A stretch of 64,000 bases of DNA, taken from the IMG/VR virus record IMGVR_UViG_2030936005_000025, positions 1-64,000 of that record; one strand, 5' to 3'. The position numbers were made by a program, and so were the translations under genes. The notes under the pieces are model-generated. The model was not told where the DNA came from, searched no databases, and saw only the letters and a program-made list of their open reading frames with translations. Shown here piece by piece: positions 34,438 through 52,511 of this stretch. This stretch comes from a virus. Its lineage: Duplodnaviria; Caudoviricetes. Positions within the stretch are counted from its first letter, which is position 1; each line of letters starts with the position of its first letter.

Positions 34438-34469
34438 TAGAACTTCTGGGGTCATTCCCAGAAGTTCTA
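34438..34469 (+). terminator. Hairpin terminator
   Basis: TAGAACTTCTGGG-GTCATT-CCCAGAAGTTCTA. Confidence 0.7.
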
Positions 34470-37500: not shown

Positions 37501-40500
37501 GAACCTGGTCTTACCATCGAGAAGACACCGGTCACCGACACCCGTATTGAGGTCATTGATCTTAACGCGATTCTGTTGATGAACGATACCTGGTCTTACG
37601 TTGGTACGACAAATAAAGAAGTGTCTGGCTTCAAGTTAACTTATGTTGACCCAGAAGACAAAAAGGAATACACCACCAGTTTCCCATTTGACATCTATGT
37701 GACTTATCCTGCACTGGAATTAAAGTACACTGGACCTCAAGAGATCAATGCAAAGATCTGGGATACCGGAACGTTCCCGATTCAGTTGATCGCGGGAACC
37801 AAGGATTTCACTTCTTCTATTGTTGCGACCAGTGTAGTAACGGGTAAGAAATATGTTTCTGTCAACAAACTCGATTGGGATGTGATTCTTGCTGAATCTA
37901 CAGCAACCTCTCAGATTGTTGGTTTGAACATTGGCTGGCGTGTTGGTAAATCTAGCGGTAACTTCCCTGCTGACTTCAAGTTTAACTTGGCGGCTTGGGA
38001 TGGTATTACTTTCGCAGAAACCGCTCACAGCCCGGAAAAGATCGAAGGTGCTTCTGGCGACAAAGGCGAATTCACTGCCTCCTTTATCTATAAAGGTAAA
38101 GATGCCACAGCCACCACAAAGTTTGACAAAGCAAGTTCCACTATCCCTGATACGGTGATTCTGGGTACTCCAGCTTACGACGCAGATAAAGGTCTGGTGA
38201 TTCCTTACGAGTTGACGCTCGGCGGTGACTTCCCAATGACACTTGTTTTTGTTTCACCTTCTGACCCTGACATGACTGTCTCTATTAATGTTGACACGTC
38301 CGTGGCATGGCCTGACGATATTAACATCGTTAATAAAGGTGATAACGTTCGTGGGTATTGGAATGACTCGGTTACCTATCCACTGGTAATCAACGTTGCA
38401 GGTACGCCGGTTAATTTAACCGATGCTAACCTCAGCTTGAATTTCAGTTCAGGTGATGATAATCCGATTGAGCTGACGGAAGCCAAAGAAACAAGTCTGA
38501 TCTTGTTACTGGCCAAAGGTGGTGATCTGGGTACGTCCTACGATTACACCATCACGATTGACTTGGAATATACCAATCAGGCAACTGGTAAAGTGTACAA
38601 CAAGCAGATCGAAGTTCCTGCTACCATTCGTGTTCCTGATGTGAAGGCGACGAATAACCCGACCATCAATGCCAATGTGTTCGACATCGGTAAGATTCCA
38701 GTTACGCTGGTTGATGAGCGCGGTAAAACGATTGAAATCACCAAGTGGGGATTATCGGGCGCAGGTACTAACGTCATTCTCATGGATCCTAGCAACTGGT
38801 ACATCACTAACGGTTCAACCATTGGTTCTGTTCCAGGTGAGCTTCCACTTCGTCTGGGTTACACCATGGGCGGTGTTGAGCGCACTATTGATGTGCTCGA
38901 GAAGTTTACCATTGCTAAGTGGGATGGAGTTTACTTCAAAGCTACTACCAAAGTTGTCAAGATTGAAGGCAACGGTGGTGACACTGGCGAGATTCCTTTT
39001 GAGTTTACTTATCAGGGTCTACCGAGTGTAGGTGTTACGCTTGATCGTAGTCGTTCAGATATTCCAGACAACATTGCCATTGGCGAGTTGGATGATGAGA
39101 ACAATCTGACCTACACCCTGTCTGGACAAGATGAGGGAGATCTCAAACTGTGCTTCGTTCGTCCTGATGCTATTGAACCAATGCAGGAAGGTCGTGACTA
39201 TGCACTGGTCTCGTTCTCTGTTAAGACGACGTCTACCAACTTACCGTTCACGCTGGAAAGCAGCGATAACAAAGTTGATGTGGATTGGGGTAAAACGGCA
39301 ACGGTGAAGTTCGTTGTTAAATACGGCGACAAAGTTGTTCCTAATGACACTCCAGGTCTGAAGATCACGCTGGCTGATGCTGCAGTGCATGGTATCAGTA
39401 TTCAGAAAGTGACCAAAGACGGCATTGAGATCAAAGGGATTCGCTCTGATGTAGCAGGTTCGACTAAGTCGTACGCTGAGACATTCAATGTGAGCTATGA
39501 AGTGGGTGCACCAGAACCTAAGCAGGTGTCTTTCGATACCACTGCTAATGTGAGTATGGGTGCTGCGACCATCTTCAACAACAACGATGTCAAAGTTAAG
39601 ATTTGGGACACGGGTTCATTCGCACAGGTCGTGCAGTTCAATGGTATCACGTTGAACACCATCGATCACTTCGAAATTCAGAACAGTGCCGATAATAAAT
39701 ATATCGAAGTCACCCCTCCTCGCGGTTATGAAGTTATTGGTGCTGAGATTGCTACTGGATCTCAGGAAATCCCAATGACGGTTTACTACCGTGTTGATGG
39801 AACCACTGAGTTGCAGAAGTTAGACTTTAAAGCCACCTTCACCATTACTGGCTCAACGTCTGTACGATTCAAGGTCACACCAAGCCCAACCAAAGTTGAG
39901 GGTTCTCTCAACAATGAATCTGTGGTGCGTTGCACACCTATCTATAAAGACAAACCAGTTGGCGGACGTGCTACCTTCAAACCTGCACTTTCTACCATTC
40001 CTCCTCAGTTAACACTGAAAGATTTTAAAGTGGTCAACAATGACTACGTTATTACTTTCGTGGGTGCTAAAGGCGGTCTGGCAACAATGGACTTGGTCTT
40101 CTGGGCTCCAGATGTCACTGATCCACCGAAAGCACGTGATGTTGCTACTGCAACGTTTGATGTTAAAGTCATGGGTGAATTGGGACTTGAGATCGGTACA
40201 CGTGACAACCTGCTTACAGGTAAGAACGCAGACACCGGTACTTATCGTCTCCAGATCTTGTTTGGTGGTATTCCGATCGATGCTGCAGCAGATATTGCTT
40301 CAGGTAATCTGACTGCCACAAGGGAAGCAGGTGTTCCTTCGTCGATGAACGCTAACGTGATCACGATTGATAAATGGAACGCAGAGTCCTACGACTACAC
40401 CTTGGCTGGTTGTGTACAACCTAACGCAACAGTGAACGTATCCGATTTCATCAACTTGACTTATAAGTACGGTGGAACGAACTATACACGTCGCGTTGAG

Positions 40501-43500
40501 ATTCCTCTGAAGTATACCAGTAGCACGCCTGATTTCACCGGCTGGCCAACTGCGTACCTCAAGGTCTTCTCTAAAGGGACATTGTCACCAACCGTGAAAT
40601 GTGATGGGGTAACTATTAACGGTATCAACTCTATTGCCAACTATGGCGATACGGATGACGCTTATGTGACCCTGGGTGGAACAACTAAGCAATATGAGAT
40701 CTTTAACGGCGACACCGTCGATATTACTCATTTGGTTCATGCTCGTGTTATCGGTCTTTACCGTAACTGGACCTGGACTGCTGAAATTGACATTCCATTC
40801 AACATCCTGGCTTGGAACCAAAGAACCTGGGATCCGACATTATCGGGTGCTCCTTGGTCAGTGTATATGGACCTCACCGGTACAGCGACTCGTCAGGTTA
40901 ACTTGACGGCGTATTACCGCAATGGGCTTTACTCTGGGTTCTCAAGTAAAACAGGTGATTTGATTTACCGAGATAAGACTGATCTTCTTGGTTTAGTTGG
41001 TCTGGATTATTCAGCGTATGCATCCGCAACCACCCAGTTCTACCGGATGACTGCGAAGAAACCTGGAAAGGGAACATTAAAACTCTCCTTCCGCAATCCT
41101 GAAAGCACAACTGTTCCAGGTAAAGAAGGTGTGGATTACACCAACGTTGATTATGACGTTGAGGTAAAAGAAAACACACTGATTGGATCCACATCGGGCA
41201 CACCTACCGGTGGTAATGGCGATACTGCTACTATTACCTTGGTTGTTCGTCAGGAATCCAACAACAGTCAAATCCAAAACACTAACCAGTATTTGGAAAT
41301 TGCAACGGTTAATGAAGATGTGTTTAAAATCACATCGAAAGCTGCAAGTACGATTACTGTTCTGGTAACGGCACCGCTCTCTGTTCCTGATGGCGTTGTG
41401 AATGTTCCGATGACCTTTAAGTACACCGACCCTAACACTGGGTTTGTGACCAAAGGTACGTTTGACTATCCGTTTATCATTAAGCGTCCTTCTGATTATC
41501 CAACTGTGCGTCAGACTAACACAGTGCAGACTTACCGTCTGTTCGACTATGGACCTAACCCGTTCACAGTAACTTCAGAAGGCCAGAACGTTAGTGCTAA
41601 AGTTATCCCGATCTCCTGTAATGATACCATTAGCGCTGGAGTCGGAACAGGCAACCAACCTCCTTATATGGAGATGTCTTACAACGATCCGGTTGATGGT
41701 AACTGGTTCTGGATTACTAAGGTGTTCAATGTTAGTCAATCCCAGGGTCGTGTAAGTGAGTGGGTCATTCGTGTCCCTTATCGTGGCTCAACGGTTGATA
41801 TTACCGCACGGTTCAGTTATAACCTGTATGGCGGAACCAACATTACTGAGTTCTACGTTGCTGCTAACCAAAGCAAGTTCTTGACAATGAAGGTAGGTGA
41901 CCAAGTCACTCTTCCATTCACCATCAAGTATCGTAACCTTGCCTACGGTAAAGCGGTATTCAAGCCTGATGCAGTCGCCACAGAACAGGGTTATCCTACT
42001 CCGTTCAGTGAAAACTATAAGTTCATCAAGCAAGAATATGATCCTTCAACTCAATTGACGAACATTACCTTTGAGGTTGTGAAGTTAAATCTCAATGCAA
42101 CAGTACCGTTTATCTTTGACTTGAAAGCTGATCAAACTAACCCAGTGATGAACAGTAACCGCGGACTTGGTTTTTCCGTTGCTTATGGTTTAACGATTAC
42201 CCCATCGACAGATAACATCTGGAACATGTGGCAAACTCGTTTCCTGAGCGGCATGGTTTCTATCAAGGATGGTAGCACCGAACTGGTTTCAAGCTGTACA
42301 GTTCTGTCAGTAAGCAGCCCACTGTTCGTACAACAAAGTACCGGGGTCAACCCACGCTTTGCATTGCAGAGTGATGTGGCAATACCTGCTCAGAAACTTG
42401 ATGTTGTTTATGAGATTCAGCTGCCTGCAGCTTATTTCAATACGGTTATCAAAGTAACGATTCCAGCAAACATCAATGAGTATGACGGTGTTGAGTTCTA
42501 TATCGAACGTAATGGTAGTGGTCCAAGCTGGCCAGTTGCGGCGATCGGTAGCACTAAAGTTGCGGTTGACTATCTGTGGTGTTATTACCGTGGTTCTCGT
42601 ATGACTGCTAGTTTAATCCCTAGTCAGGTGACGAGTACAACGGCTGCATTAAGAGAAAAGAACAAGGATGTGGATGGCGGTTCTGGATTAATTTGGAATG
42701 GGATGTCGTACAATACCAGCTCCAACCTTCAGTTCCTGAGTTTCTCATCTGGCAGACAGATTAACGGTAAAGATGTTGTCTTCCCGATCGACTATAAAGG
42801 TCCGGGATATGATAATTACCCAGTAGGAACTAAAGGCAAGAACTACTTTGAGTATACGGTACCTGCTGCTAAGTTCTACGAGAATGCACTTTATCCTTAT
42901 CCATCGGACAAAGTGATTGATCAAGTACAAGGGTCTAAAGGGGATCGTGTTAACGTTCCAATTACCTTTACTGTGGGTAAAGACTTCACCGACAACCCAA
43001 TACTTCCAGGAAACCTGACAAGTTGGGTAATCATCAATGCCAGCGATTTAGCCGGTGTGGTGAGCAAGCCATCGAGTAACCCGAACACAGCAACGGGAAT
43101 TGTTCTTCAGGTTAACTTGGATAACCGTGGTGACGATGTTCTTGTAAATGTACCTATCCGCTTTACCTATAACACCACATATCGTGGGACTTCTATTAAC
43201 AGCTCTGTCGACATGACTGTTCCGCTGTTAATTAAAGGTACAGGGACAGGCGATCAGGTTGTTGTAACACCAGGCACTTTTACAAACTCTCGTGTGTGGG
43301 ATGTCAGTGGGCCAGCGTTGGCAATCACCGTTAACGGCGTGGCAATCACTTACAATCAGATTACCGATATTCAGATTGCTCCTAATCCGTATATCCGTCG
43401 GCCTGAGGTCAACCCTAATACGACAAGTCGTTGGTTTGAGATCTACAATGGTAAAACAGATGGACCGACGCAAACGACCGCAACGTTCACTGTGACGTTT

Positions 43501-46500
43501 AATGATGGTGCTCGTACTCGCACTATTACTCAAGACGTTCCAATTACCATTCAGAAGTACAGTGGTAGTCCTTGGGCAATCACGGTAATGGTTCCGAATA
43601 ACCCGAATAACACGACGTACAACATCGGTTTAAGTGGTTATCTTAATAGTTACCAAAACCTGAGCTTGATGGTTTACTACAAAAATGCTGCCTTGACTGA
43701 AGCATTTGCAAGCACCATTGGGATGGATGTAACTGCGGGGAGTTTCGACACTCCTGGATTCAGTAACCCAACGACACAACAGTACTACTATGTCACGGCT
43801 GGTAACACTAATCCTGGTCCTTGCTTCCAGATTCTGTTCCGGGCGGGTGCAGTTGATACTTTAGAGAAGAAAGCCGGTAAGATCAAGTTTGGTTTCCTTA
43901 ACAAACTGACTGACCCTAATTCTGTCGAAGGTCAAGACTGGGTGTATGTGGATGTATCTTGCTTAACTTATGTTTCTGGCAAGACCTACATTTACGAACA
44001 AGGTGTAACGGAATTCACCAGTAAATACACTAACCCAATTACCAAGGTCAAGTTGCCGTTCAAAATCCGTCGTGATAACCAAATGGTAGGATTGAACGTT
44101 ACTTCGTATAACCCTGCGCTTTCTAATCAGGGTAACTTGGCACTGGTGTTCAACGAGAGTGATGTGGCTACCAATATCACAGTAGGTTTCAATGCTGAAC
44201 TTGTTTCTCAGAAACAGCAGACGTTGGACACTATTGTCTGGATTGGTAACGGACAGAATAACACACTGTCTGCTCAGGGTGTGGTGAGAGCGACCCAAAT
44301 CTCCAACTACGACTTCCCAACTGTCGGAACGGTGAATTCTGTTAATGCTCAGTTGAACCAACGTGGTGGATTACCATTCACCTTGAAGGATGATTCTGGC
44401 AACGACATTACTTCTACTGCAACGATTACAGCGATCTCGACTAACGATTACGTTAAGTTAGATTCAGGTCAATGGCTCTGCTACAGTGTACGTTCTGCGG
44501 ATACTCAAATCCAAGTTACGTTCACGTATCAGCTCACTTACAAAGGCAACTTGCTCACCATGAAGCAAGATGTTCCGTTTGTGATTAAGCCGTTCACTGG
44601 TCAACCTACCGTTAGTGATGTTCAGGTTGTTAATGGGAAAGTATGGGATATCGGAAGTAAGATTCCGTTCACCATCAATATCAATGGCAATCCAGTACCG
44701 AGCACTTGGATCACAGCACTGACAGGAACCTCTGCCAATAACCGTGTTCAAGTTACCAGTCTGGCAGAACCTTGGTATATCGTAGCGGGTAGTAAGGATG
44801 CTGCTGTTTCTGATACCGTGAGCTACGTAGCAACAGTCACCGATGGAACCAATACCTGGACAGTTAAACAGGATGTGGTCTTCAACATCGCGAAATACGA
44901 TGGAGTGGAACTCTCAGCCCGTATTCTGACGTCAGGTGGTGGTAACGCTGAATTGCAAACGGTGTTCTATCCGTACAACGCAACCAGCATTGTGGGGATT
45001 ATCTTCAATCTCTACTCTAAAGGTAGGTTGGTCGCTAATACGGGGATTGCGAGTCTCAATGTAGGTAAAGGGCTCGTTGCTTCAGGAACAAGTGCATCTG
45101 GAGCCAATGCAACATGCAACATCAAAGGTAATAACACTGTTAGTGGAAATACTGAAACGTCCATGACAGTTCAGTTGACCATTCGTGGATCCGCTGCAAC
45201 AACAGAGGGTATCGACATTCTGACAGTGACCATTCCGGTGTTTATGGTTCAGGGTACGGGTCAGTTGTTGGTTCACCCAAGAACAACGAAAGCCATGACA
45301 GGCAAATACGGCACGCCGGTTTCTCTTGACGCTTATCTCATTAAGTATGTCAGTGAAGCAGGAAGTCGATTCGTTGATCTAACAACCGGTAACACTACTA
45401 TTACGTTTGCCCCATCAGACGTTATTACCTTGGTCCCTGGTTCTATTACAGCTCAAGGCTATAAGGTCAACTTCGCATCTCGTCTGTACGCGGACACGGT
45501 GAAGGATGTCGTGGTAACGGTAACCAATGGCGGTGTTTCGAAAACTTACACCTTGAACACAACGCAGTTGGCTTCTCCTGCTGATCAACCGGATGTGAAG
45601 GATAATAACGGTCAAACAGCAAGTGTCAACCAGTCTGGTGCAATGCCATTCAAGTTAGTTGATCCTGATACTCAGGAAGACGTAACCTCAAAAGCGACTA
45701 TCTCTTCTATTGCTAGCAACGATTACATCGAGCTGGTTAACGGTAAGTGGTACGCTAAGAAGGACGTGGCAACTGACACCCACACCAACGTGACCTTTAC
45801 CTTAACTTTGAATTATCGCGACAAAGATATCGGTATGGACGTTGTGGTTGATTTCTTGATCAAACCGTTTGATGGGAAGTTTACTGTCACGGACAAGAAA
45901 GATATCACCGCTAAGGTGTGGGATAGAGGAACAGTTCCTCCATTTGGTCTCAGTGTAAACGGCAACCCAGTTCCAACTTCTTGGATTACAAGCTGGGAAA
46001 CCTCGCCTACTGACACCTACGTAGCAGTTGCTGCAAATGGTTCATGGCAGGTTATTGCAGGCGATCAAACCAAAGGCGTCACTGTTACTGTTGGATATGC
46101 TGCGAACATTACTGTTCCGGGTGGGAATACCACTAAGAACGTAACGCAGGTTACTTTCAACATTAGTCAGTATGACGGTATTGAGTTCAAACTCAACCTG
46201 GCTAACCTTCAGGCAGGTAATAAAGAACTGCAAGCTATCTTCCTCACCTATAATGCCAGCAGTACCAATGGCATTTATTTCGAAGGTCGATACCGCGGAG
46301 ATCTTGTACCGAGTCCTATTGGTGTGTCGTTGAGTGGGGGTTATCTGAGAATCGGTAACGGACCTATTAATGGTGCGTCTTCCGTTGCTTGGGCAGTTCA
46401 ACCTTCCGGTGCTCCGGCTAGAGGCACAGCTGCCTGGACGGCGAGAATTAAGCGTGCAAGTAGTGCTGGTAACATTGAGAACTCAGATGTTGCTTCATTA

Positions 46501-48549
46501 CCGATCCCAGCTTATTTCGTAGTAGGTGCTGGCGATATGTTCGTTCACACTGGTACAACAAAAACAGCTTCGGGCAAGAAAGGTGATCAACTTGATCTTG
46601 TACTGAATATGTTCCGTTATTCCGGTACGCCGACGACCACAACCCTGACAGATTTGACCGCTGGCAGTACAACAGTTGAGTTCTCCCCTGCAAATGTGAT
46701 TGAACTGGTTCCTGGTTCTATTACAGCGCATGGGTATAAGGTGCGTTTCATCAACACCCTGTATCAAGACACAAATACCCAAGTTACCGCTACTGTGAAA
46801 ACAGCATCAGGTAATGTAAGTTATGTGATTGATGTGACTCAGTTGGCTTCTCCTGCTGCACAGCCTGATGTGGTTGGTAATAACACACAGACTGCTGGCA
46901 TCAACCAGACTGGCACCATGCCGTTTAAACTGGTAGATCCAGACACCCAAGAAGACGTCACTTCTGCCGCCACCGTTACTTCTGTCGACAGTAATCCTTA
47001 TGTCGAGTGGGTTGACGGTAAATGGCGAGTGAAATCAGATGTTTCAGCGGATACCCATTCCGATGTAACATTTAATCTGACGATCACTTACCGCGGCATC
47101 ACCAGTGACATGCATGTTACCACGGACTTCCTGATTAAACCATTCGACGGTGTATTCACGTTTGGTAATGTCGAGCCGATCTCTGGTAACGTGTGGGATC
47201 GTGGTACTGCTATTGACATGGGTATTAAAGTCAACGGCAACGCGATCCCGGTAGATTGGATCACAGGTTATCTGGCGACTCCAGAAAGCAACTACGTTAC
47301 TGTTGGAGCTAACGGTGTATGGCAGATTGTTGCGGGCAGTAAAGACGAAGCAATCACCGAAACTGTAGGTTACACAGCGACTGTTGCTGTTCCAGGAACC
47401 ACCTCTTATCCAGCCACTGTTCAAGTGACATACAACATCGGTAAGTACGATGGGGTTGAATTCAAACTTCGACTCACTAATCTGAACGCGGATGATGTGT
47501 TGTTTGGTCAGGCAGGATTGGCGGCTCGTGGTTATCTGGAAGGCAGGTATCGTAATGATCTGATTGGTGGAACTTCAGGATATGGATGGACAGTAATCAC
47601 TCGCGTGAACTTACATCCGACGACGCCGATTTCAGGTGTTAACCTCAGTGGGTCTTCTAAGATCTATGACTTTAATACTGTTGACGCGCCGGCTGCTCGG
47701 GCACAGAACGTGGTTCGTTTCGTTCGCCCTGGTGGTAAAGATCCTAAGACTGATAACACTGCTGTTAAAGATGTTGACTACGTTGATATGGTTATTCCGA
47801 TCACCACCTGGAAATCCGACACACTCGTAGCTGGTCAGACCCCAGATAAGTTTGAAGGTAAACTGGGTGATGTACTGGATGTGAGAGCCAACGCTTACTA
47901 CAGTAGCACCAGACTCAGTCTTGACTCCAGTGTACTTCAAATCACGCCTGACGCCTCCCTGGGTATTGAGATCGTTCCTGACTCTATCACCGCGGATGGT
48001 TTCAAAGTGAGATTCGTTGCTGACGTAACAGAACAGACAACTGTCGCATCTGTTATCACGTACAAGTACACGAATGGATCTACTACTGGAACGGCTACCC
48101 CAGCGTTTACAGTGGTTCAGAATCCAGGAGATGTCAGTCCTGATGTTAACGCCACCGGCACCATGGCACCTATGAAATACGGCGAGACTGGTAACATCGT
48201 CTTGACGGGCACTGTAGGTTCTGATGCACTGGCTGGTAAAGTCACCTTCGTTCCTGAAAGCAGTGACAATAAGGGACTGGTCACGTTCGGTGATCCTGTT
48301 AACAATGAAGACGGTACAGTTTCTATTCCTGTTACCGCTGACAAAGTTGGTAAAGATAACCTGACTATCCATATTACGGTAAATGGTGCAACCGGAAATG
48401 TCTCTGGCAAGGATTATTTGGATGTCATCGTCGCAGCTGAAGTTACCTATGGTGATCTCGGTGAAGGTGATGGCTTTGAAACCAATGCCACAGGCACGAG
48501 CGGTGAACCTGTAACTGTTATTCAATGGACGTACATGCCAGAAGAGTAA
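34555..48549 (+). CDS. Giant (4664 aa) Ig-like repeat tail fibre or virion appendage protein
   Basis: Uninterrupted 14-kb ORF, AGGAG RBS, Thr/Val/Gly-rich modules of about 100 aa with recurring K[IV]WDxG and [KA][YW]DG motifs. Confidence 0.85.
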   Translation: MAELIKVNKKVINDPLFTPVIAFLKERIANLEINGPEDELALSKQRYDGLVAGDLVIESAVRFPDNVVRVCIISRKTGFARVDLDIKYAKMKDILEDFTVPLVEIEDVDHLKTYVKANSDIEPTLLYLKYKDTYGVLITQDQAKTHEGPMTAFGNLFFENYTTTRESLNSIDWESLECGTVTITDPSFGQGVYPLFIYELVLAEAQLPEITSNLPTSITSRRGETFDIPNTYWFAGTQDITTTATVELSTKLGYANLERSSDLLQIDGETIYGSADQEITDTIVVRVSYDWNGKLVRKNFYIELKIEKDLPSELVITSVPTEVKATSGDIVELTLTAKLRGDKVEILIPPTMLRSQKGFGNLAYVKTNKDLTMVYRGKVNVSWPRDVEQVADLWYAEFSYNDAGTIIKNTAYINSILVKPETLPAFTVTGVPTLLQGYKNQTGKYKPTVMYGEQEIALTQVQIDTGVQGSKQLVDITEVTDAGVSWKLIDDSQTPGTAIRDSFTQTYEWLDPRGVLQTKSFVIQVNVLLDSIVELVPVPPQPRNVVRYQTGGPTFTFMVNGTPRSGLIRTIRVDPIADPKKQYIVNNPKANNQWMVALADETGPVDYTANFTITALVDGVIKTYKFPQEFIIAKYVPGTNDTGSNTGPGGNTGPTDPTSPGGEGNPNSPGSGDGPYNTNIKAEPLSYSIGDKGEKSAKLTFKVLEGTTDITADCHLLTESTVTPSNVSFDNLTYDADNNVFVVDYTKLGKGQSEGAVFACKKADANPAKVDIARIWINTKIGIGDGPPVDDSDPDNPGGGPAPGETGTGPGGSTGPTDPTEPGGDQNPDSPGEGDGPYNADITAVPTSFTIGGESDKNYKMSFKIFQGTEDVTAKSEIMSDYTVLPEFVTLNPITYDATNNVFVMTYTKDKGGESQGAIFAKLKATQNPTKKEIARVWLNVNITQTKILKVINPPKSINLDVGVGNDFPLTVEFSGKEINLLEPGLTIEKTPVTDTRIEVIDLNAILLMNDTWSYVGTTNKEVSGFKLTYVDPEDKKEYTTSFPFDIYVTYPALELKYTGPQEINAKIWDTGTFPIQLIAGTKDFTSSIVATSVVTGKKYVSVNKLDWDVILAESTATSQIVGLNIGWRVGKSSGNFPADFKFNLAAWDGITFAETAHSPEKIEGASGDKGEFTASFIYKGKDATATTKFDKASSTIPDTVILGTPAYDADKGLVIPYELTLGGDFPMTLVFVSPSDPDMTVSINVDTSVAWPDDINIVNKGDNVRGYWNDSVTYPLVINVAGTPVNLTDANLSLNFSSGDDNPIELTEAKETSLILLLAKGGDLGTSYDYTITIDLEYTNQATGKVYNKQIEVPATIRVPDVKATNNPTINANVFDIGKIPVTLVDERGKTIEITKWGLSGAGTNVILMDPSNWYITNGSTIGSVPGELPLRLGYTMGGVERTIDVLEKFTIAKWDGVYFKATTKVVKIEGNGGDTGEIPFEFTYQGLPSVGVTLDRSRSDIPDNIAIGELDDENNLTYTLSGQDEGDLKLCFVRPDAIEPMQEGRDYALVSFSVKTTSTNLPFTLESSDNKVDVDWGKTATVKFVVKYGDKVVPNDTPGLKITLADAAVHGISIQKVTKDGIEIKGIRSDVAGSTKSYAETFNVSYEVGAPEPKQVSFDTTANVSMGAATIFNNNDVKVKIWDTGSFAQVVQFNGITLNTIDHFEIQNSADNKYIEVTPPRGYEVIGAEIATGSQEIPMTVYYRVDGTTELQKLDFKATFTITGSTSVRFKVTPSPTKVEGSLNNESVVRCTPIYKDKPVGGRATFKPALSTIPPQLTLKDFKVVNNDYVITFVGAKGGLATMDLVFWAPDVTDPPKARDVATATFDVKVMGELGLEIGTRDNLLTGKNADTGTYRLQILFGGIPIDAAADIASGNLTATREAGVPSSMNANVITIDKWNAESYDYTLAGCVQPNATVNVSDFINLTYKYGGTNYTRRVEIPLKYTSSTPDFTGWPTAYLKVFSKGTLSPTVKCDGVTINGINSIANYGDTDDAYVTLGGTTKQYEIFNGDTVDITHLVHARVIGLYRNWTWTAEIDIPFNILAWNQRTWDPTLSGAPWSVYMDLTGTATRQVNLTAYYRNGLYSGFSSKTGDLIYRDKTDLLGLVGLDYSAYASATTQFYRMTAKKPGKGTLKLSFRNPESTTVPGKEGVDYTNVDYDVEVKENTLIGSTSGTPTGGNGDTATITLVVRQESNNSQIQNTNQYLEIATVNEDVFKITSKAASTITVLVTAPLSVPDGVVNVPMTFKYTDPNTGFVTKGTFDYPFIIKRPSDYPTVRQTNTVQTYRLFDYGPNPFTVTSEGQNVSAKVIPISCNDTISAGVGTGNQPPYMEMSYNDPVDGNWFWITKVFNVSQSQGRVSEWVIRVPYRGSTVDITARFSYNLYGGTNITEFYVAANQSKFLTMKVGDQVTLPFTIKYRNLAYGKAVFKPDAVATEQGYPTPFSENYKFIKQEYDPSTQLTNITFEVVKLNLNATVPFIFDLKADQTNPVMNSNRGLGFSVAYGLTITPSTDNIWNMWQTRFLSGMVSIKDGSTELVSSCTVLSVSSPLFVQQSTGVNPRFALQSDVAIPAQKLDVVYEIQLPAAYFNTVIKVTIPANINEYDGVEFYIERNGSGPSWPVAAIGSTKVAVDYLWCYYRGSRMTASLIPSQVTSTTAALREKNKDVDGGSGLIWNGMSYNTSSNLQFLSFSSGRQINGKDVVFPIDYKGPGYDNYPVGTKGKNYFEYTVPAAKFYENALYPYPSDKVIDQVQGSKGDRVNVPITFTVGKDFTDNPILPGNLTSWVIINASDLAGVVSKPSSNPNTATGIVLQVNLDNRGDDVLVNVPIRFTYNTTYRGTSINSSVDMTVPLLIKGTGTGDQVVVTPGTFTNSRVWDVSGPALAITVNGVAITYNQITDIQIAPNPYIRRPEVNPNTTSRWFEIYNGKTDGPTQTTATFTVTFNDGARTRTITQDVPITIQKYSGSPWAITVMVPNNPNNTTYNIGLSGYLNSYQNLSLMVYYKNAALTEAFASTIGMDVTAGSFDTPGFSNPTTQQYYYVTAGNTNPGPCFQILFRAGAVDTLEKKAGKIKFGFLNKLTDPNSVEGQDWVYVDVSCLTYVSGKTYIYEQGVTEFTSKYTNPITKVKLPFKIRRDNQMVGLNVTSYNPALSNQGNLALVFNESDVATNITVGFNAELVSQKQQTLDTIVWIGNGQNNTLSAQGVVRATQISNYDFPTVGTVNSVNAQLNQRGGLPFTLKDDSGNDITSTATITAISTNDYVKLDSGQWLCYSVRSADTQIQVTFTYQLTYKGNLLTMKQDVPFVIKPFTGQPTVSDVQVVNGKVWDIGSKIPFTININGNPVPSTWITALTGTSANNRVQVTSLAEPWYIVAGSKDAAVSDTVSYVATVTDGTNTWTVKQDVVFNIAKYDGVELSARILTSGGGNAELQTVFYPYNATSIVGIIFNLYSKGRLVANTGIASLNVGKGLVASGTSASGANATCNIKGNNTVSGNTETSMTVQLTIRGSAATTEGIDILTVTIPVFMVQGTGQLLVHPRTTKAMTGKYGTPVSLDAYLIKYVSEAGSRFVDLTTGNTTITFAPSDVITLVPGSITAQGYKVNFASRLYADTVKDVVVTVTNGGVSKTYTLNTTQLASPADQPDVKDNNGQTASVNQSGAMPFKLVDPDTQEDVTSKATISSIASNDYIELVNGKWYAKKDVATDTHTNVTFTLTLNYRDKDIGMDVVVDFLIKPFDGKFTVTDKKDITAKVWDRGTVPPFGLSVNGNPVPTSWITSWETSPTDTYVAVAANGSWQVIAGDQTKGVTVTVGYAANITVPGGNTTKNVTQVTFNISQYDGIEFKLNLANLQAGNKELQAIFLTYNASSTNGIYFEGRYRGDLVPSPIGVSLSGGYLRIGNGPINGASSVAWAVQPSGAPARGTAAWTARIKRASSAGNIENSDVASLPIPAYFVVGAGDMFVHTGTTKTASGKKGDQLDLVLNMFRYSGTPTTTTLTDLTAGSTTVEFSPANVIELVPGSITAHGYKVRFINTLYQDTNTQVTATVKTASGNVSYVIDVTQLASPAAQPDVVGNNTQTAGINQTGTMPFKLVDPDTQEDVTSAATVTSVDSNPYVEWVDGKWRVKSDVSADTHSDVTFNLTITYRGITSDMHVTTDFLIKPFDGVFTFGNVEPISGNVWDRGTAIDMGIKVNGNAIPVDWITGYLATPESNYVTVGANGVWQIVAGSKDEAITETVGYTATVAVPGTTSYPATVQVTYNIGKYDGVEFKLRLTNLNADDVLFGQAGLAARGYLEGRYRNDLIGGTSGYGWTVITRVNLHPTTPISGVNLSGSSKIYDFNTVDAPAARAQNVVRFVRPGGKDPKTDNTAVKDVDYVDMVIPITTWKSDTLVAGQTPDKFEGKLGDVLDVRANAYYSSTRLSLDSSVLQITPDASLGIEIVPDSITADGFKVRFVADVTEQTTVASVITYKYTNGSTTGTATPAFTVVQNPGDVSPDVNATGTMAPMKYGETGNIVLTGTVGSDALAGKVTFVPESSDNKGLVTFGDPVNNEDGTVSIPVTADKVGKDNLTIHITVNGATGNVSGKDYLDVIVAAEVTYGDLGEGDGFETNATGTSGEPVTVIQWTYMPEE
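36457..37390 (+). repeat. Tandem duplication (about 162 aa period) of a Gly/Pro/Asp/Thr linker plus one domain
   Basis: TGPGGNTGPTDPTSPGGEGNPNSPGSGDGPYN versus TGPGGSTGPTDPTEPGGDQNPDSPGEGDGPYN. Confidence 0.85.
44296..48117 (+). repeat. Three tandem super-repeats of about 425 aa (four modules each)
   Basis: Equivalent Gln codons at 44296, 45565, 46840 and 48118. CAGTTGGCTTCTCCTGCTG is identical at 45565 and 46840. Confidence 0.85.
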
Positions 48550-48581
48550 TAGATCGTATCCCTTAATAAAGGACTTTATGA

Positions 48582-50153
48582 ATGACCACCGCTAACCAAG
48601 TGTTAAGCGTTAACGGTCAGAAGTTAAGTAATAAGGATCCTGATTTGACAATCACTCTGGACGATCATCCGGTCGTCCAGATTTCTTCTATTCAAGAGGA
48701 GTCCATTACGTACTCCTTCTTGACGAATGTCGAAGCAGAAATCTCTTACAACCTTAACCTGACATTTACGTACAAGAACAAATATCGCCTTGTTGTTCCG
48801 ATGACCTTTGTTCACAAAGTGTTCACGGAGAACTTCGTGATTGCACCTGAGTTGTCAGAACTCTCGACAACCACTGATCATGACTTCACCCTTCTGTTTG
48901 ATGCAACGCTAAACGGAACTGGGAATGCTCGTGACATCTCACTGGACACCGCTAACTCGACATTGAGTGCAGGCATCAGTGTGGTTTCTCAAGCAGCACA
49001 GAGTGACACGCAATACCAGGTTGTCCTGAATGCGCAGTCACCGGTTGAAGCCGATAACACCTTCTTGTTCTTAAGAGAAGGGAAAACCGCCGATGGTAAA
49101 GAAGGCAGTGACTTTGCGAAAGCTGTGATTAAACTGGATATCAAGAATGGTATCAACACAGCCACGTGGGATCCTAACTTCAAAGCCGTGGGTGCAGATC
49201 GAAACTACATCCCAATTACCGTTGTTGATAAAGACGGTAATCCGCTGGAAGGTGTCACCATTTCTTCACTGAACATTACTGCTAATCCGCGTAATGGGGT
49301 GTTGAATGGATACAGTAACACGCTCTTAGCAGGGGATGACGGTCAACCGGGTAGTTACAAAATCCGTGTTGATTTGGATCATTTGCCAGGAACAATTACT
49401 GTTAAGTTGGCACTCTCCTTTAACGGGACTACTTTCACTATTCCTGATGAAGTCTTTACGGTCCCAGCCGGTCCTTATACCGTGACCGTGGATCCAGCTT
49501 CTGTTGTTCAAGATCAAACGGTTGATCTGAGTCTGAACATTATTCAAGCACGTTATGGTGACAGTAACCACAAGTTCACTGGTCGCATTACTGCAATTGA
49601 ATCAACTGAAGATTCGATTACTGTTAACACTCCAACGCCTATCACGATTACCGATGGTGTGGCTTCTATTAATGTCACCGGTAAGAATCCTGCTGAAAGT
49701 ACCATTGCGGCCACTGCACAGGAATATGATAGCAATATGGATGTGTGGCGTGAAGCCGGTGAAATTCACATTTATGTGAAGACTATCGCTGCGCCTGATG
49801 TTGAACCAGAAATCCAAGATGGCACCACAGACATGACTCTGAATCTGTGGGATACACAAGCTATCAATTATAAAGTAATGGCAGGTGAAACGGATATCAC
49901 GTCTAGCGTTACGAATGTCACGGATCAAACTGATCCTAACGACGCGATCGAGCTGGTTAAAGTCGACGATACCCACTGGGGCTTCCAAGCCGTTAAAGCA
50001 CGCACTGATGAGGATCTGGTTATCGATGCTATGGTAGATGTTCACGTTATGTATCAAGGTACCGAGCGTGTCATCCCAATGACTATCGATGTGGTAGTGA
50101 AAGCCAATACTACTGGCATTCCTGAAAACCGCTTCAACGTCGAAATGCTTTAA
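48582..50153 (+). CDS. Ig-like repeat fibre-associated protein, 523 aa (starts mid-module)
   Basis: AAGGA RBS. The N-terminus aligns with the distal part of the giant-protein modules. C-terminal GIPENRFNVEML. Confidence 0.8.
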   Translation: MTTANQVLSVNGQKLSNKDPDLTITLDDHPVVQISSIQEESITYSFLTNVEAEISYNLNLTFTYKNKYRLVVPMTFVHKVFTENFVIAPELSELSTTTDHDFTLLFDATLNGTGNARDISLDTANSTLSAGISVVSQAAQSDTQYQVVLNAQSPVEADNTFLFLREGKTADGKEGSDFAKAVIKLDIKNGINTATWDPNFKAVGADRNYIPITVVDKDGNPLEGVTISSLNITANPRNGVLNGYSNTLLAGDDGQPGSYKIRVDLDHLPGTITVKLALSFNGTTFTIPDEVFTVPAGPYTVTVDPASVVQDQTVDLSLNIIQARYGDSNHKFTGRITAIESTEDSITVNTPTPITITDGVASINVTGKNPAESTIAATAQEYDSNMDVWREAGEIHIYVKTIAAPDVEPEIQDGTTDMTLNLWDTQAINYKVMAGETDITSSVTNVTDQTDPNDAIELVKVDDTHWGFQAVKARTDEDLVIDAMVDVHVMYQGTERVIPMTIDVVVKANTTGIPENRFNVEML

Positions 50154-50162
50154 TTTTAAATA

Positions 50163-50180
50163 GAACCTCTTCGGGGGTTC
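50163..50180 (+). terminator. cUUCGg hairpin between fibre genes
   Basis: GAACCTC-TTCG-GGGGTTC followed by ATTCTTTATT. Confidence 0.6.
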
Positions 50181-50204
50181 ATTCTTTATTACATAGAGGT
50201 AAAA

Positions 50205-51449
50205 ATGGATAAGCAACTTACATTGCTTGAAGGTCAGAGTGGTAGCATCAAAGTCAAACCTACTTTCGAAGGCAAGGCAGCTGCAGATAAGGTTGAACTG
50301 TCGCAGTCACTGAGTAACGCGGATATTCTCCAACTGACCTCGGCACCTGTTGCCAGTGAGAACAACACTGTTGCTACTGTCGCCGTCAAAGTGGGTGCGA
50401 TTGCTGATCTGACCGGTAACCTGGTGTTTAAATACACCGGCAATGAATCTGAAGTCGAAAACATCGGCATCAGTACCAAAGAGATCGGCATTAAAGTTAA
50501 TGCTGCTCAACTGGCGACCCAAGAAGCTCCCTCACCAACCAAGTTCAAGTACACGCCGGGTGCCCAGCTTGTTATCAACGTTCTGTATAAGAATGGCGAT
50601 GAGAATCTGGAAAACACCGATCCACATCTGAATCTGTCTGTGGGTGACTCTGTGTTGGAACTGGTGAGTCGTGATGCGACTGGCGTGACTTTGAAAATCA
50701 AAGACGACGCTGATCCAGCCACTGCTCCAGGTGTTCTGCAACTTCTGGCAACTTACTACTCCGGTAGTTCAAGCACTGACTTGACTCTGGTTGCTAAACC
50801 AAACCTGACTATCGAGACCACTCCACTGAGTCTGACCAATGGTGAAAACCATGCGTTCCCAGTTGTGGTTAAGAAGGGTGATGACGATATTACTTCTTCT
50901 ATCACCAACATTCAGGCCACCGCGGATGAATACTTCACTGTTGATGCCAACGGTAACATCACTGTTATCAAAGCAGATACCGCTGAAGTTCAACGTACCA
51001 TCCACTACACCTTCGACTACACCGAAGATGGTCTGACCTGGACCTACACTGCTGACGTTACTGCGACTATCGCAGCGACCGAAACTCCTGACCAGTTCTC
51101 GCTGACCGATGTGTCAACGCCACTGACGATGGATCTGTGGGCTAAACAGACCCTGAGCTACAAAGTGATGGACGGCGAAACTGATGTTACTTCAAGCGTG
51201 ACCTCTGTGACTGTTAGCAATGCTGACGCGATCAAAGACAAGTTCGAAGTTACTCAGGACGGCGTTACCACGACCTTCCAGTCTGTTAGTTCTAGCAGCA
51301 CTGAGCAGGTTACCGCGACAGCTAACGTTGTTATCGCTGGTACCTACAACGGTCAAGAGTTCAGCCTCCCTGCTGACATCAATCTGGTTACTAACGTTAA
51401 CGACGGTAGCATCCCTACCAACCGTTTCGACGTTCAGATGGATCAGTAA
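50205..51449 (+). CDS. Four-domain Ig-like protein, 414 aa
   Basis: GAGG RBS, N-terminal LLEGQSGSIKVKPTFEGK, C-terminal GSIPTNRFDVQM, high-expression codon choice. Confidence 0.8.
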   Translation: MDKQLTLLEGQSGSIKVKPTFEGKAAADKVELSQSLSNADILQLTSAPVASENNTVATVAVKVGAIADLTGNLVFKYTGNESEVENIGISTKEIGIKVNAAQLATQEAPSPTKFKYTPGAQLVINVLYKNGDENLENTDPHLNLSVGDSVLELVSRDATGVTLKIKDDADPATAPGVLQLLATYYSGSSSTDLTLVAKPNLTIETTPLSLTNGENHAFPVVVKKGDDDITSSITNIQATADEYFTVDANGNITVIKADTAEVQRTIHYTFDYTEDGLTWTYTADVTATIAATETPDQFSLTDVSTPLTMDLWAKQTLSYKVMDGETDVTSSVTSVTVSNADAIKDKFEVTQDGVTTTFQSVSSSSTEQVTATANVVIAGTYNGQEFSLPADINLVTNVNDGSIPTNRFDVQMDQ

Positions 51450-51459
51450 TTTAACGAGC

Positions 51460-51485
51460 GAGAGGGTTCCGAAAGGAGCCTTCTC
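51460..51485 (+). terminator. GAAA-tetraloop hairpin after the 414-aa gene
   Basis: GAGAGGGTTCC-GAAA-GGAGCCTTCTC followed by CTCTTT. Confidence 0.7.
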
Positions 51486-51507
51486 CTCTTTAACATAAGG
51501 AGGTAAT

Positions 51508-52398
51508 GTGAACGCTAAAGTCAATATTCTAGAAGGACAGACCGGACATGTAAAAGTGACCCCTACGTTTGAAGGAAAGTCTGCACTTGGTAAAGTAGAA
51601 ATTGATTGGAGTAACACAGATATGCGAGGGATGGTGATATTGAATAAATCAATGTTGCCGATAGACAATGCCAATGCGTATTTGGTCTTGACTGCATTAG
51701 CTACTTCTCAAGGCACGGGAAAGGTGGTGTTTAAGTACGTGGGAAGTAAATCAGATGTAGAGAATGTAGGGACCGCCACTAAGACGGTTGACATTACGGT
51801 TTCTCCTGCGGTATTAAATGTAGTGAGTGTTTCTCCTACTTATATTAAATGGATTCCAGGACAGGAAACCGATATAGCAATAACCTGGGTTAATGGAACG
51901 CAACCTGTATTAGCAACTAACCCATTACTCGACCTATCCACAACCGGAGACAACATTACGATTGTTTCCCGTAGTGAAACAGGAATAAGAGTGAAGGTTA
52001 ATAGTAATGCTAATGCAACGGCACTTCCGTTAAAAGAACAAGTCATTGTGGCCAAGTATTATTCTGGTCAGGCAAAGACGGTTTTGAACTACGCATTGAA
52101 ACCTGCTTTAACCATTACGTTGAATGGAACCATTAACTTGAAAGGTGTGGGTGCTAAGAGCCCGTTCCCGTTTAAGATTATGGACGGAACCAAAGACGTT
52201 ACCAAGCTTGTTAAAAATATCAAAGCCTCTGACAGTTATCTTAAGTTTAATGATGATGGGAGTTTCGTTGTCATTAAGGTGGATCTATTGGCTGTGGTCA
52301 GAACGGTGACTTACACGTTCGATTACGAAGTGAATGGATTAGTGTGGAGCTATACCACCAAAGCAACTGTTACTATAGGCAACCTCATTAATCTTTGA
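51508..52398 (+). CDS. Three-domain Ig-like protein, 296 aa, paralog of 50205..51449 lacking domain 4
   Basis: AAGGAGG RBS with GTG start, N-terminal ILEGQTGHVKVTPTFEGK, Lys-rich. Confidence 0.8.
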   Translation: MNAKVNILEGQTGHVKVTPTFEGKSALGKVEIDWSNTDMRGMVILNKSMLPIDNANAYLVLTALATSQGTGKVVFKYVGSKSDVENVGTATKTVDITVSPAVLNVVSVSPTYIKWIPGQETDIAITWVNGTQPVLATNPLLDLSTTGDNITIVSRSETGIRVKVNSNANATALPLKEQVIVAKYYSGQAKTVLNYALKPALTITLNGTINLKGVGAKSPFPFKIMDGTKDVTKLVKNIKASDSYLKFNDDGSFVVIKVDLLAVVRTVTYTFDYEVNGLVWSYTTKATVTIGNLINL

Positions 52399-52471
52399 TT
52401 GGTGATTGTTTACGGGTTCTGATAGTCACGATCAGGTAATCCCTTTAAACAAAAAAAATAAAGACTAAACT

Positions 52472-52500
52472 AGAGAACCTACCCATTGGGTAGGTTCTCT
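52472..52500. terminator. Bidirectional terminator at the late/early block boundary
   Basis: AGAGAACCTACCC-ATT-GGGTAGGTTCTCT. Confidence 0.8.
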
Positions 52501-52511
52501 ATTATGTTTGT

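What the first reader, a model, noticed from the sequence alone, without database searches (positions are those of the whole stretch)
48582..52398. Candidate pilus-like, self-polymerising virion filament: adaptor, major subunit, cap
The 523-aa and 414-aa proteins end in the same domain plus an extra conserved strand (GIPENRFNVEML, GSIPTNRFDVQM). The 414-aa and 296-aa proteins begin with the same domain (LEGQxGxxKVxPTFEGK). So 523 has only the putative donor end, 414 has both ends and 296 has only the putative acceptor end. That is the logic of an initiator, a head-to-tail polymerising subunit and a terminator, as in strand-exchange pili. Expression signals agree: the 414 gene uses high-expression codons and is bracketed by a cUUCGg hairpin and a terminator, while the 296 gene lies past that terminator, starts with GTG, uses AT-rich codons and encodes a basic protein suited to a tip adhesin. 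With the split module upstream, gene order would equal assembly order: giant fibre, 523, (414)n, 296. The sequence relationships are seen directly. The polymer model is inference.
Basis: partly seen in the sequence, partly recalled or inferred. Interest (0 to 1): 0.85.

Follow-up and report, generated by a model that had tools for sequence, protein, structure and literature searches.

The report
Phage fibre proteins docked end to end
Three neighbouring genes of an uncultured nucleus-forming jumbo phage encode strings of Ig-like beads that probably join head to tail, each by a conserved C-terminal peptide that docks on the first bead of the next protein; this pilus-like way of building a phage fibre has not been described, and it is not yet shown that the middle protein polymerises.

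Summary
The 523-aa and 414-aa proteins share a C-terminal domain plus tail. The 296-aa protein matches the first three of the four domains of the 414-aa protein, not only domain 1.

Findings that support head-to-tail docking:
- AlphaFold gives rods of beta-sandwich domains. In both tail-bearing proteins the tail is unfolded, yet it is the most conserved segment.
- In the 30 strong tail-bearing hits among 1.84 billion representative proteins, the domain-plus-tail always ends the protein.
- At all 29 junctions read in relatives, the next gene begins with the PTFEG domain.
- The tail's invariant Arg and the next protein's invariant Glu are swapped reciprocally in one sublineage.

Expression signals also hold. 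The 414 gene has codon usage like highly expressed genes (97th percentile). The 296 gene is near the bottom (3rd percentile). The same order holds in 11 relatives, and a GNRA hairpin between the two genes is conserved with compensatory changes.

Not shown: homopolymerisation of 414, true donor-strand completion, and presence in the virion.

This scan noted the same architecture before in another genome (e1-5376098).

Verdict: a new variant of multi-protein phage fibre. The junction is likely (about 0.55). The capped-polymer reading is about 0.3.

The parts
34555..48549 (+). Giant 4664-aa protein of Ig-like modules, the proximal part of the proposed fibre. Its last full module (about residues 4533-4633) is Ndom-like but lacks the PTFEG motif.
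   Evidence: ORF. Ndom profile hit at 48175-48369, with the alignment. In some relatives one polypeptide runs from the same N-terminal domain to the Cdom+tail (P0046, P0047).
48582..50153 (+). 523-aa adaptor. It consists of N-terminal junction module J1 (residues 1-90, nt 48582-48851), a low-confidence insert (82-189), two beta-sandwich domains (190-402), Cdom (405-506, nt 49794-50099) and a class-1 tail (507-523, nt 50100-50150, ...IPENRFNVEML).
   Evidence: The AlphaFold model has mean pLDDT 78. The tail is coil with pLDDT falling from 68 to 48.
50163..50180 (+). 7-bp hairpin with a UUCG loop, followed by ATTCTTTATT, lying between the 523 and 414 genes.
   Evidence: A hairpin lies at this position in 9 of the 13 relatives folded, with a UUCG loop in OBP, pEt-SU, Kc263 and L021; AH04, L017, SXP01 and L025 have none.
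50205..51449 (+). 414-aa extender. Its parts are D1/Ndom (1-100, with the KPTFEGK motif at residues 18-24, nt 50256-50276), D2 (101-198), D3 (199-292), D4/Cdom (296-396, nt 51090-51392) and a class-2 tail (397-414, nt 51393-51446, ...IPTNRFDVQMDQ).
   Evidence: AlphaFold model: pLDDT 85.7, four beta-sandwich domains, tail coil. Foldseek matches cadherin/titin-like rods. Codon adaptation index 0.618, 97th percentile.
51460..51485 (+). 11-bp hairpin with a GAAA loop between the 414 and 296 genes. It is a likely attenuator or 3' stabiliser. The CUCUUU that follows can pair with the AAGGAG ribosome-binding site of 296 (51496-51502).
   Evidence: In the six-phage alignment, 6 of 12 stem pairs show compensatory double changes.
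51508..52398 (+). 296-aa tail-less terminal protein (cap). It consists of Ndom (1-100, with the TPTFEGK motif at nt 51559-51579) plus D2 and D3. It has no Cdom and no tail, a pI of 9.2 and a GTG start.
   Evidence: Its codon adaptation index is 0.269 (3rd percentile), and it scores lowest in the genome on the expression-linked codon axis.
52471..52501 (.). 14-bp bidirectional terminator that closes the + strand fibre operon against the converging - strand genes.
   Evidence: Near-identical sequence is found at the same place in OBP, Yubaba and L020.

Best explanation
The three genes encode the distal pieces of one long beads-on-a-string fibre of a nucleus-forming (chimallin/PhuZ) jumbo phage. 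The pieces are made separately and joined without covalent bonds, in gene order.

Proposed junction: each upstream piece ends in a beta-sandwich domain (Cdom) followed by a free peptide of about 17 residues (...N-x-N-D-G-S-I-P-x-N-R-F-[DN]-[VI]-[EQ]-hydrophobic...). This peptide lies as an added antiparallel strand against the [KT]-P-T-F-E-G edge of the first domain (Ndom) of the next gene product. The proposed pairs are tail Arg with Glu22, Phe beside Phe21, and tail Glu/Gln with Lys/Thr18.

Proposed roles: 523 is the adaptor. Its N-terminal module takes the end of the giant protein and its tail offers the docking peptide. 414 is the extender, with both an acceptor and a donor end. 296 is the tail-less terminator.

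Copy number: the extender is made in excess and the cap sparingly, so the extender may add in more than one copy. I put that at about even odds, given that the junction is real.

Shown: the domain sharing, the folds, the unfolded conserved tail, the strict terminal positions, gene adjacency, the covariation, and the codon and hairpin signals.

Inferred: physical docking, the register, the copy number and the location in the virion.
For: (1) Domain sharing.
(2) AlphaFold shows rods of Ig-like domains. Both tails are coil at low pLDDT while the neighbouring domains score above 88. The fold is confirmed by Foldseek.
(3) The tail core IPTNRFDV is the most conserved segment: entropy 0.48 bits against 1.54 for the domain body. 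The Ndom motif region scores 1.06 against 1.69 for the rest of Ndom.
(4) Exhaustive search of 1.84 billion representatives gave only 34 hits. In all 30 strong hits that include the tail, the match ends within 2 residues of the C-terminus. The weak internal hits lack the tail.
(5) In the 29 junctions read, from about 25 genomes and contigs, the gene after a tail always starts with Ndom at residues 1-12. Whole-record searches of the window's genome and of pEt-SU, Kc263, SXP01, N1M2 and Yubaba find no strong extra copies elsewhere.
(6) Reciprocal charge swap: the tail has RF and the Ndom has F-E in 26 of 29 junctions. In Yubaba, L033 and L034 the tail has E-F and the downstream Ndom has F-R. There are no mixed cases.
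(7) The second covarying pair fits the same antiparallel register. Class-1 tails carry E/D with Lys/Arg18 in 17 of 22 junctions. Class-2 tails carry Q with Thr/Val18 in 6 of 6.
(8) 22 of 23 class-1 tails stop exactly 5 residues after the Phe and end in two hydrophobic residues. This suggests a buried C-terminus.
(9) Continuity with the giant protein: in some relatives one polypeptide runs from the giant's N-terminal domain to Cdom+tail. Minimal adaptors of 201-202 aa consist of the N-terminal junction module and Cdom only.
(10) Expression: codon adaptation is high for the extender and low for the cap in this genome and in all 11 relatives tested. The GNRA hairpin between the two genes is conserved.
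Against: - There is no structural or biochemical test of binding.
- The charge swap is one evolutionary event (one sublineage). The class covariation is confounded with paralogue identity.
- Gene adjacency across relatives is largely shared ancestry, not independent replication.
- AlphaFold gives domain 1 seven strands. Domain 1 is as long as its in-chain homologue in the giant protein, so no groove or missing strand is evident.
- N1M2 keeps an intact tail although its only Ndom gene is a 62-aa remnant.
- pEt-SU, Kc263, SXP01, L021 and L025 end the operon with an extender whose tail has no downstream partner.
- The locus lies beside a ribonucleotide reductase gene and small unknown genes, not in a recognised structural block.
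- Pfam and PHROGs give no assignment.
- EM of N1M2 reported no visible fibres (PMC7058600).
Confidence: 0.55

Rival explanations
1. Common-anchor (Hoc-like) model. Cdom plus tail is a module that fixes each protein independently to the same kind of site on the capsid or tail, as the C-terminal domain does for T4 Hoc. On this view 414 is an abundant four-domain decoration protein. The giant/523 chain is a rarer long fibre anchored by the same module, and the N-terminal domains point outward.
For: 414 has four tandem Ig-like domains, and its conserved attachment-like element is at the C-terminus. Its codon usage is like that of abundant virion proteins. Extender tails stay conserved in phages that lack a cap gene. 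The extender gene is dispensable in Survivor, Yubaba and N1M2.
Against: The model does not explain the reciprocal Arg/Glu swap between the tail and the next gene's N-terminal domain, nor the class-specific E-Lys and Q-Thr pattern. It leaves the tail-less 296-type proteins without a means of attachment. The N-terminal (outward) domain carries the most conserved motif, which is unusual for an exposed tip. There is no sequence similarity to Hoc or other decoration families.
Confidence: 0.2
2. Independent paralogues. The three proteins are products of domain shuffling and duplication within a family of Ig-like fibre or adhesin proteins and do not touch one another. The tail would be a folding, chaperone-recognition or stability element of its own domain.
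For: All domains are distantly related Ig-like modules, and the middle parts are shuffled extensively (class-1 proteins range from 201 to more than 4000 aa). Conserved synteny alone could produce the gene-order syntax.
Against: The tail is predicted unfolded in two independent models. It is more conserved than the domain. It covaries with the next protein rather than with its own domain. Its strictly C-terminal position is kept despite heavy shuffling.
Confidence: 0.12
3. Non-virion, exported adhesin-like proteins. The acidic-then-hydrophobic C-terminus would act as a type I secretion-like signal, and the proteins would work outside the particle.
For: The giant Ig-repeat architecture resembles LapA/SiiE-type adhesins. 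Class-1 tails end in an acidic residue followed by two hydrophobic residues. The locus lies outside a recognised structural block.
Against: There are no GGxGxD repeats, no signal peptide and no membrane segment in any of the five proteins. No transporter genes lie nearby. The tail covaries with the next protein. The family is confined to one clade of lytic jumbo phages.
Confidence: 0.05

Closest known systems
Type V pili of Bacteroidota (FimA/Mfa1 with tip and anchor subunits)
   Same: The subunits are Ig-like. The donor element is a C-terminal strand that binds the N-terminal domain of the neighbouring subunit. Separate tip, shaft and terminating subunits are encoded in one operon.
   Different: Type V pilins are lipoproteins that need a protease to remove an N-terminal strand and open a groove. 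Here there is no lipobox, no protease and no evident groove. There is no sequence similarity. Assembly would take place in the cytoplasm of an infected cell.
Chaperone-usher pili (Pap/Fim): adaptor, major subunit, terminator
   Same: The logic is initiator/adaptor, both-ended major subunit and terminator. From general knowledge of the pap operon, its major-subunit mRNA segment is stabilised and followed by a hairpin that limits expression of the downstream minor subunits. The hairpin-bracketed 414 gene looks like this.
   Different: In these pili the donor strand is an N-terminal extension that fills a missing G strand. A periplasmic chaperone and an outer-membrane usher are required. Neither feature is seen here.
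Chaperone-free strand-complemented filaments (TasA, archaeal cannulae)
   Same: These are self-assembling filaments of beta-sandwich subunits joined by a donated terminal strand without an usher (papers listed: PMC10151520; bioRxiv 10.1101/2024.12.30.630787).
   Different: They are cellular, extracellular-matrix filaments of single-domain subunits. No phage example was found in the literature searches.
T4 long tail fibre (gp34-gp35-gp36-gp37)
   Same: It is a phage fibre built from several gene products joined end to end, with gene order equal to assembly order (general knowledge).
   Different: T4 fibre proteins are trimeric beta-structures that need chaperones. Their joints are not known to use a terminal peptide docking on an Ig-like domain. 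Each protein is present in a fixed small copy number.
T4 Hoc / T5 pb10 decoration proteins
   Same: They are monomeric strings of Ig-like domains on phage particles. Hoc has four domains with its capsid-binding element at the C-terminus (general knowledge; review PMC7602432 listed).
   Different: There is no sequence match. The Hoc analogy does not explain the tail-less paralogue or the covariation with the next gene product.
Docking domains of modular polyketide and non-ribosomal peptide synthases
   Same: Short C-terminal and N-terminal partner elements on consecutive gene products enforce the order of assembly. Class-specific pairs prevent mis-joining (general knowledge).
   Different: Those elements are helical docking domains on enzymes. 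They are unrelated in fold and in biology.

Membership tests
Donor-strand-complemented pilins (chaperone-usher or type V) | Terminal peptide that is unstructured in the free subunit and conserved as the donor strand | tested here: met
   The tails 397-414 (414) and 507-523 (523) are coil with pLDDT 40-68. The tail core has entropy 0.48 bits against 1.54 for the domain body.
Donor-strand-complemented pilins (chaperone-usher or type V) | Acceptor domain with an incomplete Ig-like fold (missing strand, open groove) | tested here: inconclusive
   AlphaFold gives D1 seven strands, but its confidence is lower than for D2-D4 (pLDDT 55-84 against above 88). D1 is as long as its in-chain homologue in the giant protein. 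Model coordinates could not be inspected.
Donor-strand-complemented pilins (chaperone-usher or type V) | Intermolecular insertion of the donor strand into the next subunit | not testable with these tools
The only indirect support is the Arg/Glu charge swap and the E-Lys / Q-Thr covariation.
Donor-strand-complemented pilins (chaperone-usher or type V) | Sequence membership in a pilin family, with a dedicated chaperone/usher or maturation protease in the operon | tested here: not met
   No Pfam or PHROG family reaches its threshold for the three proteins. The neighbouring genes give no such hit.
Tandem Ig-like/cadherin-like rod proteins | Consecutive beta-sandwich domains in a row | tested here: met
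   The top Foldseek matches are protocadherin, desmoglein and titin fragments with E about 1e-11 to 1e-12. The closest matches in the viral structure library are the same phage clade.
Hoc-like capsid decoration proteins | Homology to Hoc or a known decoration family, and binding to capsid hexamers | tested here: not met
   There is no PHROG or Pfam match. Capsid binding cannot be tested here.
Type I-secreted RTX/Ig-repeat adhesins | GGxGxD repeats before a C-terminal secretion signal, and an adjacent transporter | tested here: not met
   The five proteins contain no GGxGxD motifs. No transporter genes lie near the locus.

The most novel reading that the evidence does not exclude
414-type extenders self-polymerise head to tail on the tail of the adaptor. 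They would form a pilus-like filament of Ig-like rods on a phage particle. The tail-less 296-type cap stops growth, and filament length would be set by the extender-to-cap expression ratio (codon bias, the hairpin attenuator and masking of the cap's ribosome-binding site). No chaperone, usher or protease would be needed. A rarer sub-variant, which I put at about 0.05, is a covalent lock of the docked tail, as in engineered split Ig-like domains or the HK97 capsid cross-link.
Probability: 0.3. Interest if true: 0.85.

Novelty: new variant of a known kind. Interest (0 to 1): 0.65.

Why it matters
If the junction is real, it is a simple, portable way to join Ig-like strings in a fixed order. It would also be a phage use of the strand-docking principle otherwise known from bacterial and archaeal filaments. 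It would explain how jumbo phages of this clade build appendages from 3-6 consecutive giant genes, and why the ends of these genes stay fixed while their middles are shuffled. It gives clear mutational predictions: an Arg/Glu swap, and E-Lys against Q-Thr specificity. A peptide-domain pair of this kind could be of use for protein assembly. If 414 polymerises, it would be the first capped, self-assembling filament described on a phage.

Tried and rejected
- No RNA holder was listed for the stretch, so no reads were laid.
- The idea that the tail is the ordinary interdomain linker or A strand of a split module was tested and dropped. The tail motif does not recur inside the giant protein. Profile comparison of Ndom with Cdom finds no similarity. 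The giant's Ndom-like module has no tail-like sequence in front of it.
- Pfam and PHROGs gave nothing usable for the three proteins, the 716-aa upstream protein, the giant's N-terminus or the longer cap proteins of OBP, Yubaba and Survivor. PDB sequence searches of the 716-aa protein and the giant's N-terminus gave no hits.
- Virion proteomics: the OBP genome paper (PMC3264338) is not held. The N1M2, Kc263 and Yubaba papers give no mass spectrometry for these genes.
- Only 5 loci were found in IMG/VR by pattern scan. The family is rare.
- A type I secretion reading was considered and given low odds.


Full report
WHAT IS THERE. The window is the first 64 kb of a 264,203-bp uncultured viral genome. 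The genome encodes a nuclear-shell protein (chimallin), PhuZ tubulin and a phiKZ-type major head protein. It is therefore a nucleus-forming jumbo phage. Its nearest cultured relative is Erwinia phage AH04. More distant relatives are OBP, pEt-SU, Kc263, N1M2, Survivor, Yubaba and SXP01.

On the + strand, between two strong bidirectional terminators (34438-34469 and 52471-52501), lie four genes:
- a 4664-aa protein of Ig-like modules (34555-48549);
- a 523-aa protein (48582-50153);
- a 414-aa protein (50205-51449);
- a 296-aa protein (51508-52398, GTG start).

523 and 414 share their last ~137 residues (36% identity, E 9e-13), including the terminal peptides. 414 and 296 share not only domain 1. 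The whole of 296 aligns with residues 1-290 of 414 (37% identity, E 2e-55). So 296 is 414 without its last domain and tail. Pfam and PHROGs assign nothing.

FOLDS. AlphaFold2 with a 16-row alignment gives 414 as four beta-sandwich domains in a row:
- D1, residues 1-100, pLDDT 55-84;
- D2, residues 101-198;
- D3, residues 199-292;
- D4, residues 296-396, with D2-D4 mostly above 88.
Residues 397-414 are coil, with pLDDT falling to 40. Foldseek matches cadherin, protocadherin and titin rods. In the viral library the closest matches are the same genes of the same phage clade.

The model of 523 shows a folded N-terminal module (1-80), a low-confidence insert (82-189) and three confident beta-sandwiches (190-506). 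It again ends in an unfolded tail, 507-523.

The unfolded tail is the most conserved part of the family. Entropy is 0.48 bits for IPTNRFDV against 1.54 for the domain body. In the N-terminal domain the LEGQ...KPTFEGK stretch is likewise the most conserved part.

A CONSERVED SYNTAX. I built profiles of the N-terminal domain (Ndom, alignment A3) and of the C-terminal domain plus tail (Cdom, alignment A4). I ran them over eight annotated phage loci, three new IMG/VR loci and thirteen metagenomic contigs.
- Every strong Cdom match ends at the protein's C-terminus.
- Every strong Ndom match starts at residues 1-12.
- Every tail-bearing gene that is not last in the operon is followed at once by an Ndom gene.

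An exhaustive HMMER search of 1.84 billion representative proteins found only 34 hits. In all 30 strong hits that include the tail, the match ends within two residues of the C-terminus. The three weak internal hits lack the tail. Whole-record searches of this genome and of five relatives (pEt-SU, Kc263, SXP01, N1M2, Yubaba) find no further strong copies elsewhere.

Four operon endings occur:
- adaptor | extender | cap: this window, AH04, OBP, L015-L017, L020;
- adaptor | extender: pEt-SU, Kc263, SXP01, L021, L025;
- adaptor | cap: Survivor, Yubaba, L033-L036;
- adaptor | 62-aa Ndom remnant: N1M2.

The adaptor ranges from 201 aa (N-terminal module plus Cdom only) to more than 4000 aa. In the longest cases the giant protein itself carries Cdom and the tail. 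This argues that the giant protein and the adaptor belong to one physical fibre. Much of this syntax is shared ancestry and cannot be counted as independent replication. What matters is that the termini stay fixed while the middles are heavily reshuffled.

EVIDENCE FOR DIRECT CONTACT. I read 29 junctions.
- In 26 of them the tail has Arg-Phe and the next protein's motif has Phe-Glu.
- In Yubaba, L033 and L034 the tail has Glu-Phe and the next protein has Phe-Arg. The carrier proteins in these three fall in separate clusters at the library's 50%-identity level.
- No mixed state was seen, and both positions are otherwise invariant.

A reciprocal charge swap of this kind is the classical signature of a salt bridge. 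It is, however, a single evolutionary event.

A second pattern fits the same antiparallel register (Arg with Glu22, Asn/Asp with Thr20, Glu/Gln with residue 18).
- Tails of adaptors carry Glu/Asp, and the following Ndom has Lys/Arg18, in 17 of 22 junctions.
- Tails of extenders carry Gln, and the following cap has Thr/Val18, in 6 of 6 junctions.
- 22 of 23 adaptor tails stop exactly five residues after the Phe and end in two hydrophobic residues.
- Extender tails end in polar residues.

These patterns were noticed after the fact and are confounded with paralogue class, so I treat them as suggestive only.

DONOR-STRAND COMPLETION OR EDGE ADDITION? The tail motif does not recur inside the giant protein. 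Ndom and Cdom profiles are not detectably similar. The giant's last full module is Ndom-like and of the same length, but it lacks PTFEG and has no tail-like strand in front of it. AlphaFold gives D1 seven strands. I therefore see no evidence that D1 lacks a strand. Docking as an added edge strand fits better than classical complementation. An earlier follow-up of this scan on another genome (e1-5376098) read D1 as strand-deficient. I could not confirm that here.

EXPRESSION. The first principal axis of codon usage is led by chimallin, major head protein, an internal head protein and PhuZ.
- On that axis 414 is at the 94th percentile, and 296 is the lowest gene in the genome.
- With weights taken from those abundant genes, 414 scores 0.618 (97th percentile of 190 genes), 296 scores 0.269 (3rd percentile), and 523 and the giant score about 0.45.
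- The order 'extender high, adaptor and giant middling, cap low' holds in all 11 relatives tested and is independent of GC3. The window's weights are only an approximation for phages of other hosts.

Hairpins:
- The hairpin between the extender and cap genes is conserved in six phages, with compensatory changes in 6 of 12 stem pairs.
- A second weaker helix can pair the ribosome-binding site of the cap gene.
- A hairpin precedes the extender gene in most relatives, often with a UUCG loop, but not in all. In OBP it sits only 10 nt before the ribosome-binding site, so it cannot be a full stop followed by a new promoter.

The cap is basic (pI about 9) only in the AH04-like subclade. The longer caps of OBP, Survivor and Yubaba are acidic.

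POLYMER OR RELAY?
For more than one extender per fibre:
- its conserved high codon adaptation;
- the attenuator-like hairpin and the weakly expressed cap;
- extender tails that are just as conserved in phages without any cap gene, which implies another partner, most simply the extender's own Ndom.
Against:
- the Gln-Thr pairing suggests that the extender tail is matched to the cap, not to its own Lys18 domain;
- the extender is missing from some relatives;
- there is no direct test.
I put the junction at about 0.55, and a true capped polymer at about 0.3 overall.

WHAT IS NOT KNOWN. No evidence places these proteins in the virion. The locus sits beside a ribonucleotide reductase small-subunit gene and small genes of unknown function. 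The OBP proteome paper is not held. EM of N1M2 saw no fibres (PMC7058600), while EM of Kc263 saw 'visible fibers' (PMC8402661). No RNA data were found. The complex predictor was unavailable.

COMPARISON AND NOVELTY. The system works most like strand-docked filaments: type V and chaperone-usher pili, TasA and archaeal cannulae. It also resembles multi-gene phage fibres such as the T4 long tail fibre. It is a member of none of these families (see the membership tests). Two literature searches found no description of such a junction in phages. I class it as a new variant of a known kind. This scan saw the same architecture before on another genome (e1-5376098), which is not independent evidence.

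Noticed in passing
window 48460-48851; L002-L008 gene borders: A second conserved junction type recurs at one to three consecutive gene borders in relatives. The upstream protein ends ...PVTLTQxxxLPx, and the next starts MxTLxQxxxVNGQxISNxDPxxVITLD (module J1, folded with pLDDT 80-90 in the 523 model). J1-like modules also occur inside giant proteins. Some relatives have no such split at all (P0046, P0047).
   Followed up: partly
window 52471-52501; L002 13989-14060; L007 18829-18900; L020 9281-9412: The bidirectional terminator that closes the operon (core GAGAAC(C/T)TACCC...GGGTA(G/A)GTTCTC, then TAT(T)ATG) is nearly identical in this phage, OBP, Yubaba and L020. The nearest cultured relative's fibre locus matched this stretch over only 12% of its length in the near-identity DNA search. 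This is unusually strong conservation for a terminator.
   Followed up: no
window 51486-51507: The CUCUUU run after the GNRA hairpin can pair with the AAGGAG ribosome-binding site of the 296 gene. The pairing is clearer in L017 and L020. It may mask translation of the cap.
   Followed up: partly
L003 12263-12451 (Klebsiella phage N1M2): The gene after the tail-bearing protein is a 62-aa ORF. It keeps only the first ~28 residues of Ndom, including the ILQGQTGQ...FYEG motif, and then diverges. It is either a recent remnant or a minimal cap.
   Followed up: no
window 48825-49148 (523 residues 82-189): An insert of about 108 residues is predicted with pLDDT below 50. It is absent from the shorter adaptors (201-304 aa) of relatives. 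It appears to be a lineage-specific variable region.
   Followed up: no
genome G000:C1 172160-174088, 180747-181697, 112898-115054: The genome encodes chimallin, PhuZ and a phiKZ-type major head protein, so it is a nucleus-forming phage. The first codon-usage axis separates these abundant genes from the rest, and it could be used to rank expression genome-wide.
   Followed up: partly
L037 7394-10314: In one distant contig the Ndom protein after the tail is 598 aa. It is followed by a further + strand gene without Ndom, so some relatives extend the operon beyond the cap.
   Followed up: no
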